Below, in pieces: positions 167 through 17,966 of a DNA stretch of 17,967 nucleotides. The position numbers were made by a program, and so were the translations under genes. The stretch is from Ignisphaera sp. GTDB taxonomy: Archaea; Thermoproteota; Thermoprotei_A; Sulfolobales; Ignisphaeraceae. Where the stretch lies: positions 1-17,967 of the forward strand of contig JAWBDT010000008.1 in the NCBI GenBank assembly GCA_038821645.1. The letters run 5' to 3'. Every line of letters begins with the position of its first letter. Within the stretch, counting starts at the first letter, position 1. The notes below the pieces were generated by a model that was given only the letters and a program-made list of their open reading frames with translations, ran no database searches and was not told where the DNA came from.

Positions 167-465
167 CCTTACGCAATTGTTTCGGGTTTTATATAGGTTT
201 ATAATGATTGATGATGGTTGTTTTACTGTGGGTTGAACTTATCCACGATGCAGGTGCACGGTAAAGACTCAAGTGGGTGGAGCATTCAAAGCCAAGATGT
301 GATGGTTTCCTCACAGCAATGAACTAGATGAAGGTGAGCTGTAGGTAGGGGTTACCTTGAACGGGTGGAGATCAATGACATAAGCACTGATGAAAGATGC
401 CCCAAGGTTGATGAAGCCAAGGGTTGACAATAAACAACATCAAGCAACATGAAACCCAAACTCCT
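167..465. mobile_element. Non-autonomous CCT-flanked insertion element, copy 1 (IS110/IS1111-like candidate)
   Basis: CCT at 167-169 and 463-465 bracket 293 bp that match 16492-16759 (about 11 substitutions by manual alignment plus one 25-bp indel). 10/12 sub-terminal inverted repeat at 181-192 and 449-460. Removing it restores integrase codons ATG TGG AGG CTC (MWRL). Confidence 0.85.
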
Positions 466-639
466 CCACATAGTGGCTTTACTCACCTTGAGAACCTCCT
501 GCACCTTCTCCCTACAGTACTTATCCACTACGTACTGAAGTATCCTAGCTCTATCCTCTTCACTCAGAGACTTTAGATTCAGAATCTCGTACCAAGGCTT
601 TACAGCCTCAATCCCAACATTATCTCCTAGTATTATCAT
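463..639 (-). pseudogene. N-terminal (HTH) stub of a crenarchaeal tRNA-associated tyrosine integrase
   Basis: KPWYEILNLKSLSEEDRARILQYVVDKYCREKVQEVLKVSKATMWR resembles the N-terminus of integrases found directly downstream of tRNA genes in crenarchaea. It starts ~85 bp 3' of tRNA-Arg on the same strand. The remainder of ORF 352..639 is read-through into the inserted element. Confidence 0.65.
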
Positions 640-722
640 ACAGTAATGTTAGTTAATCGTTTCACGGTGTATGTGTGGGTCTGAAACAATGACTTATAAA
701 CTATCACCATGCATGAGGGTGA

Positions 723-797
723 CGGGCCCGCCGGGATTTGAACCCGGGTCCTCCGGCTCCGGAGGCCGGCGCCCTCTCCTGGCTGGGCTACGGGCCC
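723..797 (-). tRNA. trnR: tRNA-Arg(CCG), intronless, CCA not encoded
   Basis: Reverse complement folds as a cloverleaf: acceptor GGGCCCG/CGGGCCC, D stem GCCC/GGGC, anticodon stem CCGGC/GCCGG with loop CTCCGGA, T arm CCGGG-TTCAAAT-CCCGG, discriminator G. All-GC stems are typical of hyperthermophiles. Confidence 0.98.
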
Positions 798-1653: not shown

Positions 1654-2529
1654 ATGATTAAAATATATGGAGCTACAAGATATACTGTATTAAGGAAGCG
1701 GATACTAGCTCCAAAGATCAAGGAGATTGATATCTATTCTCCAAGGATAGCTAAAGCTGCTAGAGCTGGTCAATTCGTTATGGTTATGGTTGATAAAGAG
1801 AGTGAAAGAATTCCGTTGACTATAGTTGACTGGGATAGAGAGGATGGATGGATTAGAGTAGTGTTTCAAGAAGTTGGTGTAAGCACAATTAAGTTGGGCT
1901 TAGTGGATATTGGAGAAGATCTATACCATGTCTCTGGCCCTCATGGTGTTCCAACACATATCTCTAGGTTTGGAACAGTAGCTGTTGTTGGTGGAGGTGT
2001 TGCTGTAGCAGCTTTGTATCCTGTTGCTAGAGCTTTTAAAGAAGCTGGGAATAGAGTTATAGCTATTATTGGTGCTAGAAGTTCTAATTTGCTTATATAC
2101 GAAGATAAGGTTAGAAGTATATGTGATGAACTCTACATCTCTACAGACGATGGTAGTAAAGGAATTAGAGGCTATGTATCTAGTGCTCTAGAGAAGATCT
2201 TTTCTGAAGGCCTTAAACCAGATCTAGTTTGGATAGTGGGGCCTGTTGCTATGATGAAGATGTGTAGTTCTGTAGCTAGAAGATATGGTGTTAGAGCTGT
2301 AGCTAGTTTGAATCCTATAATGGTTTGCGGTATTGGTATGTGTGGTGCTTGTAGAGTCAGAGTCTACGGTAAAACTAGATTCGCTTGTCTTGAGGGACCA
2401 GAGTTCGATGCTCTTGGTGTTGACTGGAACGAGCTTGAGCTCAGATTACAGATGTATAGAGATGAAGAGAACATTTCTTTAAGAAGATTTCTAGAGAGTG
2501 GTGGCTGTATTGGTCAAGATAAGACCTAG
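1654..2529 (+). CDS. nfnA: NADH-dependent ferredoxin:NADP+ oxidoreductase small subunit (sulfide dehydrogenase beta / PyrK-like FAD/NAD-binding, 2Fe-2S)
   Basis: Motifs GQFVMV, ERIPLTIVD, GPHG, VGGGVA, STDDGS, GPVAMMK, SLNPIMVCGIGMCGACRV and FACLEGPEFD; overlaps a GltD-like gene. Confidence 0.92.
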   Translation: MIKIYGATRYTVLRKRILAPKIKEIDIYSPRIAKAARAGQFVMVMVDKESERIPLTIVDWDREDGWIRVVFQEVGVSTIKLGLVDIGEDLYHVSGPHGVPTHISRFGTVAVVGGGVAVAALYPVARAFKEAGNRVIAIIGARSSNLLIYEDKVRSICDELYISTDDGSKGIRGYVSSALEKIFSEGLKPDLVWIVGPVAMMKMCSSVARRYGVRAVASLNPIMVCGIGMCGACRVRVYGKTRFACLEGPEFDALGVDWNELELRLQMYRDEENISLRRFLESGGCIGQDKT

Positions 2530-3889
2530 AGTATCTATCCCAAAGAGAAATCCTCTAGATAGAGTAAAAGACTTTGATGAAGTTGTTCTAGGGTATAGTG
2601 AGAAAGAAGCTATAGAAGAAGCATCTAGATGTATACAGTGTTCTACTAAACCATGTGTACAAGGATGCCCTATAGGAATAGATATTCCGCGATTCATAAA
2701 GCTGATCAAGAAACAGAGATATGAAGAAGCTTACAGAGTTATCATAGAGAGATGCCCTATACCTGCTGTAACTGGTCGTGTATGTCCTCAAGAAAAACAA
2801 TGTGAAAAGTTCTGTACATTAGCTAAACTGGGTGAACCAATAGCTATAGGTGCTCTTGAGCGATTTGTAGCTGATTGGATTCACCAACACGGTGTGGATA
2901 TAGAGGATAAGTACAGAGGGTGTAGAAGAGGTAGAATTGCTATTGTAGGTTCTGGACCAGCTGGAATAGTTGTTGCTTACGATCTAGTTCGACTCGGATA
3001 CGAAGTAACAGTATTTGAGGCTCTTCATGCTGCTGGAGGAGTTCTGATGTACGGTATCCCAGAGTTTAGGTTACCGAAGAAGATAGTTGATTACGAAGTA
3101 AAACGTCTACTTGATCTAGAGATCAACATAGAACTTGGGGTCATAGTTGGTAGAACAATCTCTATCTATGATCTTTTAGACAAATTCGATGCAGTATTCA
3201 TAGGTACTGGAGCAGGTCATCCACGACTTCTAGAGATTCCTGGAGAAAATCTTAACCACATCTATACAGCTAACGAGTATCTAACTAGAGTAAACTTGAT
3301 GAAGGCCTACCTCTTCCCATGTTATGATACACCAATACGTAGAGGTAGATATGTAGCTGTTATTGGTGGAGGAAATACAGCTCTAGATGTAGCTCGATCA
3401 GCTCTTAGGCTAGGAGCAAAAGAAGTTTTTGTTGTTTATCGTAGATCTAGAAACGAGATGCCTGCAAGATCAGAAGAGATAAGCAATGCTGAAGAAGAAG
3501 GTGTTAAGTTTTTGTTCTTAGTTCAACCAATAGAGTTCATAGGCAATGGCTCTGTCTCAGAGATAAAGTTAATGAAAATGAGGCTTAGTGAACCAGATGA
3601 AACTGGAAGACCGAGACCTATACCAACAGGTGAAACAATATCGCTACAAGTTGATACAGTTGTTAATGCTATAGGTTTTCACCCCAATCCATTAATACCT
3701 ATGACTGTACCCGAGATAAAGATAGACAATAAAGGGAGGATAGTAGTTGATAGAGAAGGGAGAACAACTCTATCGAGAGTCTATGCTGGAGGAGATATAG
3801 TGGTAGGAGAAGGGACAGTAATAGAGGCTATGAGATGGGGTAAAATAGCTGCACAAACAATACACAGAGACTTATCGTTAGAGAGATAG
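2498..3889 (+). CDS. nfnB: Nfn large subunit / sulfide dehydrogenase alpha (GltD-like flavo-iron-sulfur protein)
   Basis: EASRCIQC..PCVQGCP, GRVCPQEKQCEKFC, IGALERF, GSGPAG, YGIPEFRLPK, IGGGNTALD, YRRS, AGGDIV. True start may be the TTG at 2510. Confidence 0.93.
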   Translation: MVAVLVKIRPRVSIPKRNPLDRVKDFDEVVLGYSEKEAIEEASRCIQCSTKPCVQGCPIGIDIPRFIKLIKKQRYEEAYRVIIERCPIPAVTGRVCPQEKQCEKFCTLAKLGEPIAIGALERFVADWIHQHGVDIEDKYRGCRRGRIAIVGSGPAGIVVAYDLVRLGYEVTVFEALHAAGGVLMYGIPEFRLPKKIVDYEVKRLLDLEINIELGVIVGRTISIYDLLDKFDAVFIGTGAGHPRLLEIPGENLNHIYTANEYLTRVNLMKAYLFPCYDTPIRRGRYVAVIGGGNTALDVARSALRLGAKEVFVVYRRSRNEMPARSEEISNAEEEGVKFLFLVQPIEFIGNGSVSEIKLMKMRLSEPDETGRPRPIPTGETISLQVDTVVNAIGFHPNPLIPMTVPEIKIDNKGRIVVDREGRTTLSRVYAGGDIVVGEGTVIEAMRWGKIAAQTIHRDLSLER

Positions 3890-15689: not shown

Positions 15690-15992
15690 CATTAATTTCT
15701 ATACTCTATAATATCTTCAGCAGAATTATAGATTGCATTAAACAGTATACACACTCTAATATACATATATACATAGCTCATTATAAACATATATAGTTAC
15801 TATAGGTATTTATATAATATGATCAGGATGTATCTTGATTTAGAGTCATGAATAGTGATTGTATGAGATTGACAGAGAACACCTTTATTCTATTGATCCA
15901 TACTATGTGAAGAATACGGTGTAAGGAATCTAAAGTAGTTAAGATAATGTCAATAGTATATACTAAGGTCTACTACAATAAATGAATAATAT

Positions 15993-16241
15993 TTACTTTG
16001 TTCTACGGTTTAATATAATCATTATTTTGGCTAGGTTTTTGGATACAATAAACCTAGTTTTTATGATTGTTTCCTTTTTAGCTAAGGGGCTACCTATATT
16101 TCTTATAATAGTGTGTATAGGCATTAGCCCTAAAACTACTATAATCGTTATGAGTACTAGAAATACTGCTCTAGACTCTCCTAAGGCATCTCTAACGATT
16201 CCCATCACCATGGCTTCTATTAAAACAGCTGTTGCATAGAA
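15993..16241 (-). pseudogene. C-terminal fragment of an ABC permease (NitT/TauC/SsuC-like)
   Basis: FYATAVLIEAMVMGIVRDALGESRAVFLVLITIIVVLGLMPIHTIIRNIGSPLAK: hydrophobic, resembles the last helices of such permeases, and directly follows the binding-protein remnant. Confidence 0.4.
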
Positions 16242-16249
16242 TGAAGTTC

Positions 16250-17224
16250 TCGTCTATGGACATGTAGTCAACATACTTAAACACAATCATATCGTTTACA
16301 GATACATTTAGATTTACCAAGATTAGTACTACTGTATAGCAGAACCCCTAATACAGCATCAGCCTCACCTTTAACAAGTATAGGCTCTTTAAGTAGTACA
16401 TCCATAGTGACTCACGAAATCTTGTCAATTTATACCAACAGTTTTGCAAATACCAGGAAAAGCCTTCTGACAACATCACCTATGGATGCCTTATGCAATT
16501 GTTTCGGGTTTTATACAGGTTTATAAGGATTGATGGTGGTTGTTTTACTGTGGGTTGAATTCATCCACGATGGGTGGAGCATTCAAAGCCAAGATGTGAT
16601 GGTTTCCTCACAGCAATGAACTAGATGAAGGTGAGCTGTAGGTAGGGGTTGCCCTGAACAGGTGGAGACCAATGACATAAGCACTGATGAAAGATGCCCC
16701 AAGGTTGATGAAGCCAAGGGTTGACAATAAACAACATCAAGCAACATGAAACCCAAACACCTCTAGCTTTCTTCTCTTCTAGGTTCCTTGGACTCTCTAT
16801 AACCCCTGTTCCTTAGCGTAACGATGGAGTGAGGAACCCTAAGGTGAGCAATAACTACACATTTAATTCTTTCATCAGGAGTCTTAGCTTTAAACTCAAC
16901 CAAAGAGTTAAAGTCACCGAAACCATATCAAACACCTCTACAGCTACATCACTAACAGCTTTAGATGAATCATAGCCTCTATCAATAGTTACTGAAAGTC
17001 TTTTTCAGCAAAGAACTCTTTGTATAGAGCAACTAAGAAAGGTGTTTGAGGATCTTGATACGTTCAGTCAAGAGTAAACTTTATATTGACAATAACAAAT
17101 TGCCGAGATTCTACTATATAGAGAAGCGATATGTATCCCGCTAAGTAGTCTATGGCTATACCAATAACAATACCTATGGCAAGAGATGTTAAGTTAAATC
17201 ATGATCTTTTAGTGCACGAAACAT
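16250..17224 (-). pseudogene. NMT1/THI5-like ABC substrate-binding protein pseudogene, split by the CCT-flanked element
   Basis: Reconstructed across frameshifts: TM anchor LAIGIVIGIAIDYLAGY, IKFTLD*TYQDPQTPFLVALYKEFFAEK, LSVTIDRGYDSSKAVSDVAVEVFDM/GFGDFNSLVEFKAKTPDERIKCV..PHSIVTLRNRG/IESPRNLEEKK/LE [insertion] ASIGDVVRRLFLVFAK..IDKIS*VTMDVLLKEPILVKGEADAVLG/FCY...MIVFKYVDY. This follows the family motif order. Confidence 0.85.
16489..16762. mobile_element. Non-autonomous CCT-flanked insertion element, copy 2
   Basis: CCT at 16489-16491 and 16760-16762, 268-bp interior, same orientation as copy 1. Sub-terminal inverted repeat at 16503-16514 and 16746-16757. Removing it restores CTA GAG GCA TCC ATA GGT GAT (LEASIGD) in the host gene. 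Confidence 0.88.
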
Positions 17225-17513
17225 GTTTTTCACTTAATTAACTTAACTAACGAAACTCCTTTAAAAATTCTATGGCTAGCTTCTACATGATTTTTATATG
17301 ATTAATATAAGATAATGCCATTTGTTAAACAATAAATAGATAAAAATAGTCATGGATTTTATATGTATTCAACTTTATCTTAGAATTCAAAATGGAGTAA
17401 CATTACCTTAAATCTTTGTGTCACCTTCTCTTGCCAAAACTAGAAATTAAGTAACAAATAGTTCTTTGTATCCCTTAATAACAACGTAACAAGGTTTAGT
17501 AAATATAGATGTT

Positions 17514-17966
17514 TCAACTATACACTTTAGCTATAGGCTTTAATTCTATTCCTAAGTCTTTTGCTAATTCATCAACACCTTTGGCGAAGAATGCCCCTAT
17601 TATTACTAGCTTTGGCTTTAGGTTATGTACTTCTTCATATAATTTGCCTATTCTGTAGAGCTCGAGAAGATCACTTTTATCAACTCTTGATTTAACCTCT
17701 AGCAATATGTGTTCCCTATCTCTTATAACAATATCGACTTCAACAATAGAAGGTCTCTGGTAAACAACACCTTTATCGTCATAGTAAATCCATCGAGATA
17801 CTCTAGCAACACCTAGAGCTTCTTCAACAACATATTTCATAGCTTCTCTAAATCCTTCATCAGTTAGAATACCAAATCTATGAGCTATAGCATTCATAAT
17901 TCTACCGAGATCCCGTAACTCTTCTTCAACTCTTAGAACTCTTTCTTCTAATTTTGCAACTCTTTC
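17514..17966 (-). CDS. Coiled-coil (heptad repeat) protein with DUF3782 / PD-(D/E)XK nuclease-like C-terminal domain; 5' end outside the window
   Basis: Frame is open to the window edge (ERVAKLEERVLRVEEELRDLGRIMNAIAHRFG...), then E.FRE, EVDIVIRD...LLEVKS and ELYRIGKLYE. Confidence 0.8.
   Translation of the reverse strand, partial: ERVAKLEERVLRVEEELRDLGRIMNAIAHRFGILTDEGFREAMKYVVEEALGVARVSRWIYYDDKGVVYQRPSIVEVDIVIRDREHILLEVKSRVDKSDLLELYRIGKLYEEVHNLKPKLVIIGAFFAKGVDELAKDLGIELKPIAKVYS

What the first reader, a model, noticed from the sequence alone, without database searches (positions are those of the whole stretch)
16489..16762. Short non-coding element inserted twice at G-CCT-C sites: candidate RNA-only, non-autonomous IS110/IS1111-like element in a crenarchaeon
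Seen: two ~96% identical copies (167-465, 16489-16762), each bounded by CCT...CCT. Both empty sites can be rebuilt because removal restores the local host frame (integrase MWRL; NMT1 protein LEASIGD), so the ends are exact and the element appears complete at under 300 bp. Rebuilt targets GGAGAG-CCT-CCACAT and TGGATG-CCT-CTAGCT share G-CCT-CYA. There are no terminal inverted repeats, but a 10/12 sub-terminal repeat lies 11 nt inside the left core and 2 nt inside the right core. No recognisable ORF. Established: IS110-family elements recombine through a short core (CT in IS621) seen on both flanks, form circles, often have offset sub-terminal repeats (IS1111 group) and are guided by a non-coding bridge/seek RNA. 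Inference: this is a transposase-free derivative keeping only the ends and guide RNA, mobilised in trans. I could not convincingly identify guide segments by eye.
Basis: partly seen in the sequence, partly recalled or inferred. Interest (0 to 1): 0.88.

Follow-up and report, generated by a model that had tools for sequence, protein, structure and literature searches.

The report
Gene-less IS607 mini-transposon with guide RNA
The two short repeats are stripped-down copies of an ordinary archaeal jumping gene of the IS607 family that have lost both protein genes and kept only the two ends and the remnant of its guide RNA, so the repeat is real but it is not the IS110-type novelty that was proposed.

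Summary
Window 167-465 and 16489-16762 are two copies, 263 of 274 aligned bases identical plus one 25-nt indel. Each is bounded by CCT. Copy B's site is exactly empty in the closest relative.

Full-length elements with the same ends occur in same-genus genomes. They encode an IS607-family serine recombinase TnpA (NF033518, 224 bits, cut-off 110) followed by TnpB. No IS110 DEDD transposase was found in 17 genus genomes.

The window copies are three joined pieces of such a parent: the left end, a scrap of the tnpB zinc-finger region, and the last ~175 nt of tnpB plus the right end, where TnpB's guide (omega) RNA is encoded.

The junctions share a CC core: 41 of 45 left ends and 32 of 34 right ends. 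A G precedes the core only on the target side. This mirrors the published GG core and TGGG/TCGG discrimination of IS607.

The guide-RNA fold shows covariation across relatives but is the most eroded in the window copies. No cognate TnpA or TnpB is in this assembly. Verdict: new member of a known kind, modest interest.

The parts
167..465 (+). Copy A of the mini-element, both CCT (CC core + T) included; 296 nt net insertion
   Evidence: 98.2% identical over 276 nt to a copy at another site in G004
167..168 (.). Left CC core of copy A; the G at 166 is target-derived (inferred TAM position)
   Evidence: CC at 41 of 45 left junctions, G before it at 41 of 45; the G is present in two empty sites
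169..214 (+). Left end (LE). Copy positions 1-46 (window 167-212) match positions 4-49 of the G002 full-length element. Contains repeated GGGTTT / GGTTTA / GATTGA motifs (inferred TnpA binding sites) and a TTTATAA box (inferred archaeal TATA box of the tnpA promoter)
   Evidence: the binding-site and promoter roles are inference
235..277 (+). Scrap of the tnpB zinc-finger coding region (YPRCRCTVKTQVG...). It forms the outer stem of a hairpin in most relatives; copy B has lost 25 nt of it
293..462 (+). Last ~170 nt of the parent: broken tnpB 3' end, omega-RNA scaffold and right end (RE), ending ...ATGAAACCCAAAC-T
463..464 (.). Right CC core of copy A
   Evidence: CC at 32 of 34 right junctions
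465..484 (+). Flank that an omega RNA read out of copy A would carry as its guide (inferred, not shown)
   Evidence: inference from the published TnpB/omega-RNA arrangement (bioRxiv 10.1101/2023.11.20.567912, passages)
16489..16762 (+). Copy B of the mini-element, both CCT included; 271 nt net insertion; the 25-nt deletion lies after 16572
   Evidence: empty site in G004
16591..16759 (+). Copy B: broken tnpB 3' end, omega-RNA scaffold and RE, ending ...AAACCCAAAC-A
16760..16761 (.). Right CC core of copy B

Best explanation
Both repeats are gene-less, non-autonomous deletion derivatives of an IS607-family insertion sequence. This family is common in hot-spring Thermoproteota; tool-given record titles for relatives name Ignisphaera, Desulfurococcaceae, Thermogladius and Acidilobus.

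The full-length element is about 2 kb and is organised as LE - tnpA (MerR-type HTH plus serine-recombinase domain) - tnpB - RE. The mini-element keeps three pieces of it:
- about 46 nt of LE;
- about 43 nt from the tnpB zinc-finger region;
- the last ~175 nt, which is the tnpB 3' end overlapping the omega (guide) RNA scaffold, plus RE.

Inferred mechanism, by analogy with characterised IS607 elements: a TnpA supplied in trans binds the sub-terminal GGGTTT-type repeats and pairs the ends. It exchanges strands across the CC dinucleotide present at both junctions, which excises a dsDNA circle and leaves a scarless G-CC-flank donor joint. It then integrates at another G-CC site. This puts one CC at each junction with no true target duplication. 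CCT in the window is CC plus a target T that happens to equal the first base of LE.

Transcription from the LE promoter through the scaffold into the right flank would give an omega RNA whose guide matches the flank. A cognate TnpB could then cut empty G-CC alleles. The occupied allele would be protected because the base before the right-hand CC is C, T or A, not G.

In this genome the two copies are probably stranded relics. No cognate TnpA or TnpB is in the assembly, and the RNA helices are the most eroded of the family.

Shown: homology to the parent, the ends, the core, the empty sites, and covariation. Inferred: the circle, the promoter, the TAM, and TnpB use.
For: (1) Parent elements.
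- G002:C5 carries the same LE and RE around a tnpA (PF00239 Resolvase plus MerR HTH) and a 445-aa tnpB (PF07282). Its tnpA is interrupted by a nested insertion.
- Intact elements of 1.97-2.0 kb occur in G008 and G005, with TnpA of 200 aa and TnpB of 437/438 aa.
- Their TnpA proteins score 223.6 and 224.8 bits on NF033518 'IS607 family transposase' (cut-off 110). Their TnpB proteins hit NF040570 at 65.6 and 52.4 bits, below its cut-off of 100, and PF07282 above its cut-off.

(2) Homology of the window copies to the parent.
- tblastn of the G002 TnpB hits copy A at 237-404 and 392-460, and copy B at 16591-16701 and 16689-16757. These correspond to residues 334-432 and carry stops and frameshifts.
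- blastn splits copy A into parent positions 4-49, 2966-3008 and 3090-3268.

(3) Junction statistics over all unique ends collected from fetched loci.
- Left junction: GCC at 38 of 45, CC at 41 of 45, G before the core at 41 of 45. Positions further out are unconserved.
- Right junction: CC at 32 of 34. The base before it is C in 31 of 34, and T and A in the two window copies. Positions beyond are unconserved.

(4) Two empty sites.
- G004 for window copy B: GAATG-CCT-CTAGC.
- G000 C8:~44490 for a G004 copy: ACCTG-CC-TCTCTAAGG.
- Each genome therefore has an insertion that the other lacks, so movement occurred after the two lineages split.

(5) Agreement with published IS607 biology.
- GG at the transposon termini and an invariant GG target, with exchange over 2 bp and no target duplication (PMC6188088, passages).
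- A circular dsDNA intermediate, TAM TGGG against RE-end TCGG with discrimination at position -3, and an engineered gene-less mini-IS that excises and supplies the guide (bioRxiv 10.1101/2023.11.20.567912, passages).

(6) RNA structure on 31 right-end sequences (alignment A2).
- 91.3% of 824 cells pair, against 32-47% when partners are slid by 1-3 columns.
- 43 cells show a change on both sides, against 4-10 in the slid controls.
- 0 of 500 shuffles reach the observed covariation score.
- One hairpin has 5 of 7 pairs with double changes.

(7) An independent single-deletion derivative (G008_C8b) and 79-, 191- and 614-nt derivatives also exist.

(8) Of 44 loci in the genome collection that encode a TnpB relative, 30 have an IS607-type TnpA hit directly upstream.
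Against: - No cognate autonomous copy is in this 97.8%-complete, 31-contig assembly. The only IS607 TnpA (C5:17234-17782) is 37% identical to the cognate one and its ends look different. The best TnpB matches are 29-35% identical. Trans-mobilisation in this genome is therefore unproven.
- The window copies fold no better than shuffled sequence: copy A has z = +1.33, and 183 of 200 shuffles fold at least as well. The G008 parent right end has z = -1.91, with 7 of 200.
- The window copies have the most broken pairs of the set, 19 of 25, against 21-29 of 22-29 for 27 of the 28 other rows (the G010 row, with a 14-column gap, has 13 of 17). A working omega RNA here is doubtful.
- 2 of the 4 tested helices are nearly invariant and so say nothing for or against structure. 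In full-length elements the region also codes for protein.
- Rfam has no match for the element, so the RNA is not a member of a curated family.
- The TnpB proteins do not reach the NCBIfam cut-offs.
- The TAM, the promoter and the circular intermediate are inferred only.
Confidence: 0.9

Rival explanations
1. One reading: an RNA-only, non-autonomous IS110/IS1111-type element. A DEDD recombinase would move it in trans, guided by a bridge/seek RNA encoded in the element.
For: A short identical core sits on both flanks. The element has offset sub-terminal repeats, no long terminal inverted repeats and a conserved structured non-coding region. All of these features are equally expected for IS607.
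Against: - Parents with the same ends encode a serine recombinase plus TnpB, not a DEDD transposase.
- PF01548 was found in 0 of 17 genomes of the genus, while the same search gave a match in 6 of 14 control genomes.
- The conserved RNA region is homologous to the tnpB 3' end.
Confidence: 0.02
2. An ordinary MITE of a DDE transposon, in which CCT is a 3-bp target-site duplication.
For: The size (~300 bp), the imperfect inverted sub-terminal repeat and a 3-nt repeat at both ends of both window copies.
Against: - The flanking dinucleotide is the same (CC) at 41 of 45 left and 32 of 34 right junctions at unrelated sites. A true duplication would vary with the target.
- In most relatives the two junctions share only CC (GCC-T on the left, C-CC-N on the right).
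- No DDE parent was found. The parents are IS607-type.
Confidence: 0.02
3. A PATE-type derivative of an IS200/IS605 element, moved as single-stranded DNA by a Y1 (HUH) TnpA.
For: It carries a tnpB remnant and an omega-RNA region, as many PATEs do (PMC10055086, passages).
Against: - The tnpA of every full-length relative examined is a serine recombinase. Of 44 TnpB-relative loci, 30 have that TnpA upstream.
- The same dinucleotide at both junctions fits double-strand exchange. It does not fit the different left and right cleavage motifs of IS605.
Confidence: 0.03
4. A live, selected 'guide-RNA cassette'. In this reading the ~300-nt form is kept because its omega RNA is used by a TnpB in trans, and the window copies are functional.
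For: - The same three-piece architecture occurs in both right-end subfamilies and in 8 genomes of 3 families.
- There are compensatory changes in non-coding copies.
- An independent deletion derivative retains the same last ~200 nt.
Against: - The window copies have eroded helices and no cognate TnpB in the assembly.
- Retention of the last ~200 nt could simply reflect the length of RE that TnpA needs.
- Movement needs only TnpA in characterised IS607 (PMC6188088, abstract and passages).
Confidence: 0.3

Closest known systems
IS607-family insertion sequences (IS607 of Helicobacter pylori; ISC1926 of Sulfolobus is named in PMC6188088; CboIStron/IS607 of Clostridium botulinum)
   Same: - A serine-recombinase TnpA with an N-terminal HTH, followed by tnpB.
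- No terminal inverted repeats and no true target duplication.
- An identical core dinucleotide at both termini and in the target.
- Sub-terminal short repeats at unequal distances from the two ends.
- A guide RNA encoded at the tnpB 3' end and RE.
- The base 3 positions before the guide differs between the target-side motif and the RE end.
   Different: - The core is CC on the tnpB-sense strand, where the characterised bacterial elements have GG. The inferred target/TAM is (A/T)GCC rather than TGGG.
- The window copies have lost both genes.
- There is no group I intron (no Rfam intron match).
Engineered 'mini-IS' of CboIStron and natural IS605-type PATEs that encode only an omega RNA
   Same: They are gene-less, consist of LE plus RE with the guide-RNA region, and depend on TnpA (and TnpB) supplied in trans. 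The published mini-IS excises and can supply the guide. PATEs 'often encode omega RNAs'.
   Different: The elements here are natural and of the serine-recombinase (IS607) type, in hyperthermophilic archaea. PATEs belong to the Y1/ssDNA IS200/IS605 type. My three literature searches listed no paper describing natural gene-less IS607 derivatives, but I read listings only for most hits, and supplements were closed.
IS110/IS1111 elements with bridge (seek) RNA
   Same: Conservative recombination through a short core seen on both flanks, a circular intermediate, offset sub-terminal repeats and an element-encoded structured RNA.
   Different: - The recombinase is different: serine recombinase rather than DEDD.
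- Here the RNA guides a nuclease (TnpB) for retention and homing, not the recombinase itself.
- No DEDD gene was found in the genus.

Membership tests
IS607 family | TnpA is a small serine recombinase with an N-terminal MerR-like HTH | tested here: met
   Met in full-length relatives that carry the same ends. NF033518 scores 223.6 and 224.8 bits (cut-off 110); PF00239 and MerR HTH also match. The window copies themselves carry no tnpA.
IS607 family | An accessory tnpB lies downstream of tnpA on the same strand | tested here: met
   Parents have tnpB of 437-445 aa with PF07282. The window copies keep a broken remnant of residues ~334-432. NCBIfam TnpB models are hit only below their cut-offs.
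IS607 family | The same 2-bp core at both termini and in the target, with no target-site duplication beyond it | tested here: met
   CC at 41 of 45 left and 32 of 34 right junctions. Two empty sites each hold a single CC.
IS607 family | No terminal inverted repeats; short sub-terminal repeats at different spacing from the two junctions | tested here: met
   A GGGTTT-type motif starts about 10 nt inside the left core and 1-2 nt inside the right core. That these motifs bind TnpA is inferred.
IS607 family | Excision as a circular dsDNA with a scarless donor joint | not testable with these tools
   Only assembled contigs of DNA runs were available, and they showed no joint. This is no evidence either way.
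TnpB omega RNA (reRNA) | Encoded at the tnpB 3' end through RE on the tnpB strand, with a conserved fold | tested here: inconclusive
   The position is met. Covariation supports 1 of 4 helices strongly and the whole structure over controls. There is no Rfam family match, no expression data, and the window copies are eroded.
IS110/IS1111 family | DEDD (RuvC-like) transposase with a Transposase_20 domain in the autonomous partner | tested here: not met
   PF01548 was found in 0 of 17 genomes of the genus, with controls positive in 6 of 14. The parents encode a serine recombinase.
IS110/IS1111 family | A bridge RNA whose loops pair with the target and donor flanks | not tested
   No loop-flank pairing was sought, because the conserved RNA proved homologous to the tnpB 3' end.
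Classical MITE (DDE-derived) | Terminal inverted repeats plus a target-site duplication that varies with the target | tested here: not met
   The junction dinucleotide is constant across unrelated sites. The inverted repeat is sub-terminal and offset.
IS200/IS605 PATE | A Y1 (HUH) TnpA partner and sub-terminal hairpins | tested here: not met
   All full-length relatives examined have a serine TnpA.

The most novel reading that the evidence does not exclude
The ~300-nt form may be more than debris. It could be a long-lived mobile 'guide-RNA-only' lineage of the IS607 type, with the LE promoter fused directly to the omega-RNA scaffold. Such a lineage would parasitise both the TnpA (for movement) and the TnpB (for homing and retention) of autonomous partners. 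It has kept the same three-piece architecture across at least 8 genomes in 3 archaeal families. Meanwhile its right end tracks the local autonomous element, either by concerted evolution or by repeated re-derivation.
Probability: 0.3. Interest if true: 0.5.

Novelty: new member of a known kind. Interest (0 to 1): 0.3.

Why it matters
The finding replaces an exciting but wrong label (an RNA-only IS110 element in an archaeon) with a well-supported ordinary one.

It also yields some useful by-products:
- A cleanly delimited archaeal IS607 family, with exact ends, a CC core, an inferred (A/T)GCC target/TAM and two verified empty sites.
- Natural minimal substrates of 79-300 nt that bound how much of each end the serine transposase could need.
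- A set of thermophilic TnpB/omega-RNA pairs with natural covariation data.

If the mini-elements really use TnpB in trans, they would be a natural example of guide-RNA-only hitch-hikers in the serine-recombinase branch of TnpB transposons.

Tried and rejected
- Rfam. Gathering thresholds over the whole window gave only the tRNA at 723-797. A permissive search of 100-520 gave four chance-level hits with E 0.5-8. There was no intron, omega-RNA or bridge-RNA family.
- RNAalifold on the 31-sequence right-end alignment gave a weak consensus of -23.5 kcal/mol. I replaced it with four hand-defined helices and tested those.
- A long-range helix between GGGGGTTTC and GAAACCC, seen in several single-sequence folds, was dropped. 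Its variable columns give mismatches rather than compensations.
- Group I intron / IStron idea. It was rejected because there is no Rfam intron match and both copies lie antisense to the reading frames they interrupt.
- Composite-transposon idea, in which the two direct copies would mobilise the 16 kb between them. It was rejected because the interval is syntenic with G004, which lacks copy B.
- The C5 IS607 of this genome as the mobilising partner. This is unlikely: its TnpA is 37% identical and its ends show no similarity by eye. It was not tested further.
- Host-gene names. Pfam gave nothing for the copy-A host ORF or for five fragments of the copy-B host region.
- Public reads. No RNA holder was listed. 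Contigs of four hot-spring DNA runs laid on 16200-17050 showed no joint, meaning neither an empty site nor a circle junction. Many short contigs end inside the element, and their summed depth there is several-fold that of the flanks. One loose end in X2 continues from LE into sequence like the G002 full-length LE. I treat this only as a lead.
- Supplements of the papers were not opened. Supplementary tables of the IS607/TnpB surveys may already list this family or natural mini-elements.
- I did not build a covariance model and did not fold or dock any protein.
Full report
OBSERVATION

The window holds two direct copies of a short element, at 167-465 (299 nt) and 16489-16762 (274 nt). A global alignment gives 263 matches, 11 mismatches and one 25-nt gap, which is 96.0% identity over aligned bases. 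Both copies start and end with CCT. The element's G+C is 43-44%, against 35.9% for the window. The window is the first 17,967 bases of contig C8 of a 1.57-Mb, 31-contig, 97.8%-complete genome. A DNA search of that genome finds only these two copies plus a 31-nt left-end-like match on C6. A later blast also turned up a third, decayed copy at C5:63037-63323, about 66% identical to a relative's copy.

EXACT ENDS

The closest relative, G004, is 89-97% identical in flanking DNA and is syntenic with the window. Window 15803-16491 and 16760-17600 align to one uninterrupted stretch of G004 with a 3-nt overlap. The G004 sequence reads GAATG-CCT-CTAGCTCC. Copy B is therefore a precise insertion of 271 nt.

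The reverse case also exists. G004 has a copy that is 98.2% identical to window copy A over 276 nt. Its site is empty in the window's own genome at C8:~44490 and reads ACCTG-CC-TCTCTAAGG. Each lineage thus gained an insertion after the two split.

For copy A, the rebuilt junction (..KATMW|RL..) matches uninterrupted homologues in G002 and G010 (..TTMWRLLNRK..).

- Pfam finds nothing in the copy-A host ORF or its homologue.
- Pfam finds nothing in five stop-free fragments around copy B.
- The copy-B region is riddled with stops in both genomes.
- About 25 nt to the left of copy A, the open frame is actually the C-terminal/right-end fragment of a different tnpB element.

WHAT IT IS

A search of 60 relatives found matches in 18, spread over several families of the order. 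Many hits covered only the last ~175 nt or only the first ~45 nt. In G002:C5 these two parts lie 3.26 kb apart on one strand.

Between them lie two genes:
- a gene with a MerR-type HTH and a Resolvase domain (PF00239), interrupted by a nested insertion;
- a 445-aa gene with the Cas12f1-like TNB domain of TnpB (PF07282).

Intact versions of 1.97-2.0 kb occur in G008 and G005, with TnpA of 200 aa and TnpB of 437/438 aa. Their TnpA proteins score 223.6 and 224.8 bits on NCBIfam NF033518 'IS607 family transposase' (cut-off 110). Their TnpB proteins hit the TnpB models below cut-off, and Pfam PF07282 above it.

A scan of the species-representative genome collection with a TnpB alignment returned 44 loci. 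Their record titles name Ignisphaera, Desulfurococcaceae, Thermogladius, Acidilobus and others. Of these 44 loci, 30 have an IS607-type TnpA hit directly upstream. Two of the titled contigs have the same lengths as the G002 and G005 contigs, which places the genus in Ignisphaera.

ANATOMY OF THE MINI-ELEMENT

tblastn with the G002 TnpB hits copy A at 237-404 and 392-460, and copy B at 16591-16701 and 16689-16757. These hits correspond to residues 334-432 and carry stops and a frameshift.

blastn splits copy A into three pieces of the parent:
- 1-46 = parent 4-49 (left end);
- 69-111 = parent 2966-3008 (the CPRCG...VG zinc-finger region);
- 127-298 = parent 3090-3268 (tnpB 3' end plus right end).

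The same three-piece layout is seen in a G002 copy and in a G005 copy against the G005 parent, which belongs to a different right-end subfamily. Copies of 270-316 nt occur in G000, G002, G004, G005, G008, G011, G040 and G049, which span three families.

One G008 copy is an independent single-deletion derivative: LE plus the first tnpA codons, joined to the last ~200 nt. Derivatives of 79, 191 and 614 nt also exist. What all but the shortest of these keep is the last ~180-205 nt.

ENDS AND CORE

I collected all unique ends in the fetched loci.

Left junctions (45):
- the three bases before T-nnn-GCAAC-TGTTTCGGGTTT are GCC in 38;
- CC is present in 41;
- G precedes the core in 41;
- positions further out are unconserved.

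Right junctions (34):
- ...ATGAAACCCRAAC is followed by one base and then CC in 32;
- that single base is C in 31, and T and A in the two window copies;
- positions after the CC are unconserved.

The G is present in both empty sites, so it belongs to the target. The two junctions therefore share CC. CCT in the window arises because the target base after CC is T, like the first base of LE. This holds in all 3 insertion sites of the G000/G004 lineage (G-CC-TC).

COMPARISON WITH PUBLISHED IS607 BIOLOGY

- Passages of PMC6188088 state that IS607 has no terminal inverted repeats and makes no target duplication. All insertions were at a GG target, and GG at the termini and target fits exchange over 2 bp as in other serine recombinases. 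Short direct repeats sit at different spacings from the two junctions.
- Passages of bioRxiv 10.1101/2023.11.20.567912 show a circular dsDNA intermediate and a strict core-dinucleotide requirement. They report a TGGG target that is also the TnpB TAM, and an RE that ends TCGG, so that position -3 separates self from the vacant site. They also describe an engineered gene-less mini-IS that excises and can supply the guide.

The archaeal family here has the same logic with other letters: G-CC on the target side against C/T/A-CC at the right end.

Passages of PMC10055086 state that gene-less PATEs of the IS605 type often encode omega RNAs that must be used in trans. The concept of a guide-RNA-only derivative is therefore already in print.

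IS THE RETAINED REGION AN RNA?

I aligned 31 right-end sequences, 21 mini-elements and 10 full-length or other copies, and tested four helices.
- 91.3% of 824 cells form standard pairs, against 32-47% with partners slid by 1-3 columns.
- 43 cells show changes on both sides, against 4-10 in the slid controls.
- 0 of 500 shuffles reach the observed covariation score.
- One hairpin has 5 of 7 pairs with double changes, and the terminal hairpin has 3 of 10.
- The other two helices hardly vary and are uninformative.

An upstream hairpin built from the zinc-finger scrap changes its whole stem sequence between subfamilies (CCCATCCAC/GTGGATGGG against GACGCCTC/GAGGCGTC). I saw this by eye and did not test it formally.

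Against function in this window:
- copy A folds no better than shuffles (z = +1.33, 183 of 200 shuffles at least as good), while the G008 parent right end gives z = -1.91 (7 of 200);
- the two window copies have the most broken pairs of the full-length rows of the set, 19 of 25 (the G010 row, which has a 14-column gap, has 13 of 17);
- copy B has lost half of the upstream hairpin.

Rfam has no family for this RNA.

WHO MOVES IT?

The assembly has no cognate partner. The only IS607 TnpA (C5:17234-17782) is 37% identical to the cognate one, and its ends look unrelated. The TnpB matches are 29-35% identical and belong to three tnpB-only elements and to that C5 element. G004 has only a TnpA remnant. 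In the genus, NF033518 is found in 10 of 17 genomes and over the cut-off in 6 of 17.

Because G000 and G004 each have a private insertion, a source of TnpA must have been available after their split. It is now lost, unassembled or extrachromosomal. This is inference.

THE IS110 READING

DEDD_Tnp_IS110 (PF01548) was found in 0 of 17 genomes of the genus, while the same search gave a match in 6 of 14 control genomes.

VERDICT

The repeat is real and precisely delimited. It is a gene-less derivative of an archaeal IS607-family element that retains the omega-RNA region.

That is a new member of a known kind. Natural mini-elements of the serine-recombinase branch were not listed in my three literature searches. 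However, the mechanism, the engineered equivalent and the IS605-type analogue are all published.

The most interesting residue is the recurrent three-piece architecture across genera. A quick tree of the right-end region interleaves mini-elements with the local full-length elements. This suggests either concerted evolution or repeated origin, and I could not decide between them.

Noticed in passing
window 24-~140 (- strand): A ~115-nt fragment of the C-terminal coding end and right end of a second, tnpB-only IS family (...RCGVLGV...STYINLHQS*, ending ...GAGCTGAAC-C-CC). It lies about 25 nt left of copy A in the same small gene. Three full copies of that family are in this genome: C6:33351-34574, C5:22968-24086 (-) and C10:48631-49869. 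On C6 the tnpB is preceded, about 270 nt upstream, by a left end (G-CC-T-CGCGCAAC-TGTTTCGGGTTTC...) nearly identical to the IS607 left end. The same serine TnpA may therefore move both families.
   Followed up: partly
window 466-797 (- strand): A tRNA gene at 723-797 is followed by small ORFs with no Pfam family. Synteny with G004 starts only at 720. The segment 466-720 has 72-76% relatives next to other loci in G002, G004 and G010. This looks like the edge of an integrated element or an insertion hot-spot at a tRNA. The label 'integrase' is not supported.
   Followed up: partly
G000 C5:63037-63323: A third, older copy of the mini-element in the window's genome. It is about 66% identical to the G011 copy and has degenerate junctions (CG and TC instead of CC). 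The first DNA search missed it.
   Followed up: partly
L032 3157-4287 (+), i.e. G002:C5: The tnpA of the G002 full-length element is split by a nested insertion. That insertion carries a 376-aa ORF on the opposite strand with no Pfam family.
   Followed up: no
alignment A2 / tree: The right-end regions of mini-elements cluster with the full-length elements of the same genome, not with each other. Yet most mini-elements share the same two internal deletions. Either there is sequence exchange between mini and full-length copies, or the same layout is repeatedly re-derived. This is unexplained.
   Followed up: partly
L035 ~2437-2520 (- strand), G011:C33: A ~79-nt derivative made only of about 45 nt of left end and about 35 nt of right end, flanked G-CC ... 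C-CC. If it moved in this form, it bounds the minimal ends needed by the transposase.
   Followed up: no
window 16490-16780 in runs X1, X2, X8, X9: In four hot-spring DNA runs, many short contigs end inside the element. Their summed depth there is several-fold that of the flanks. Loose ends show other flanks. The family is multi-copy in those communities.
   Followed up: partly
loci L085, L086, L089, L095, L103: TnpB relatives of 39-66% identity sit in MAGs titled Methanomethylicota, Aenigmatarchaeota and Archaeoglobaceae. Three of these five loci (L086, L095, L103) have a substantial hit to the same TnpA upstream; L089 has only a 48-residue hit at 40% identity and L085 none. This is either transfer across phyla or binning error.
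   Followed up: no
window 17514-17966 (- strand): The gene next to copy B encodes DUF3782 plus a PD-(D/E)XK nuclease domain (PF12644, PF07788). It runs off the window's end.
   Followed up: no
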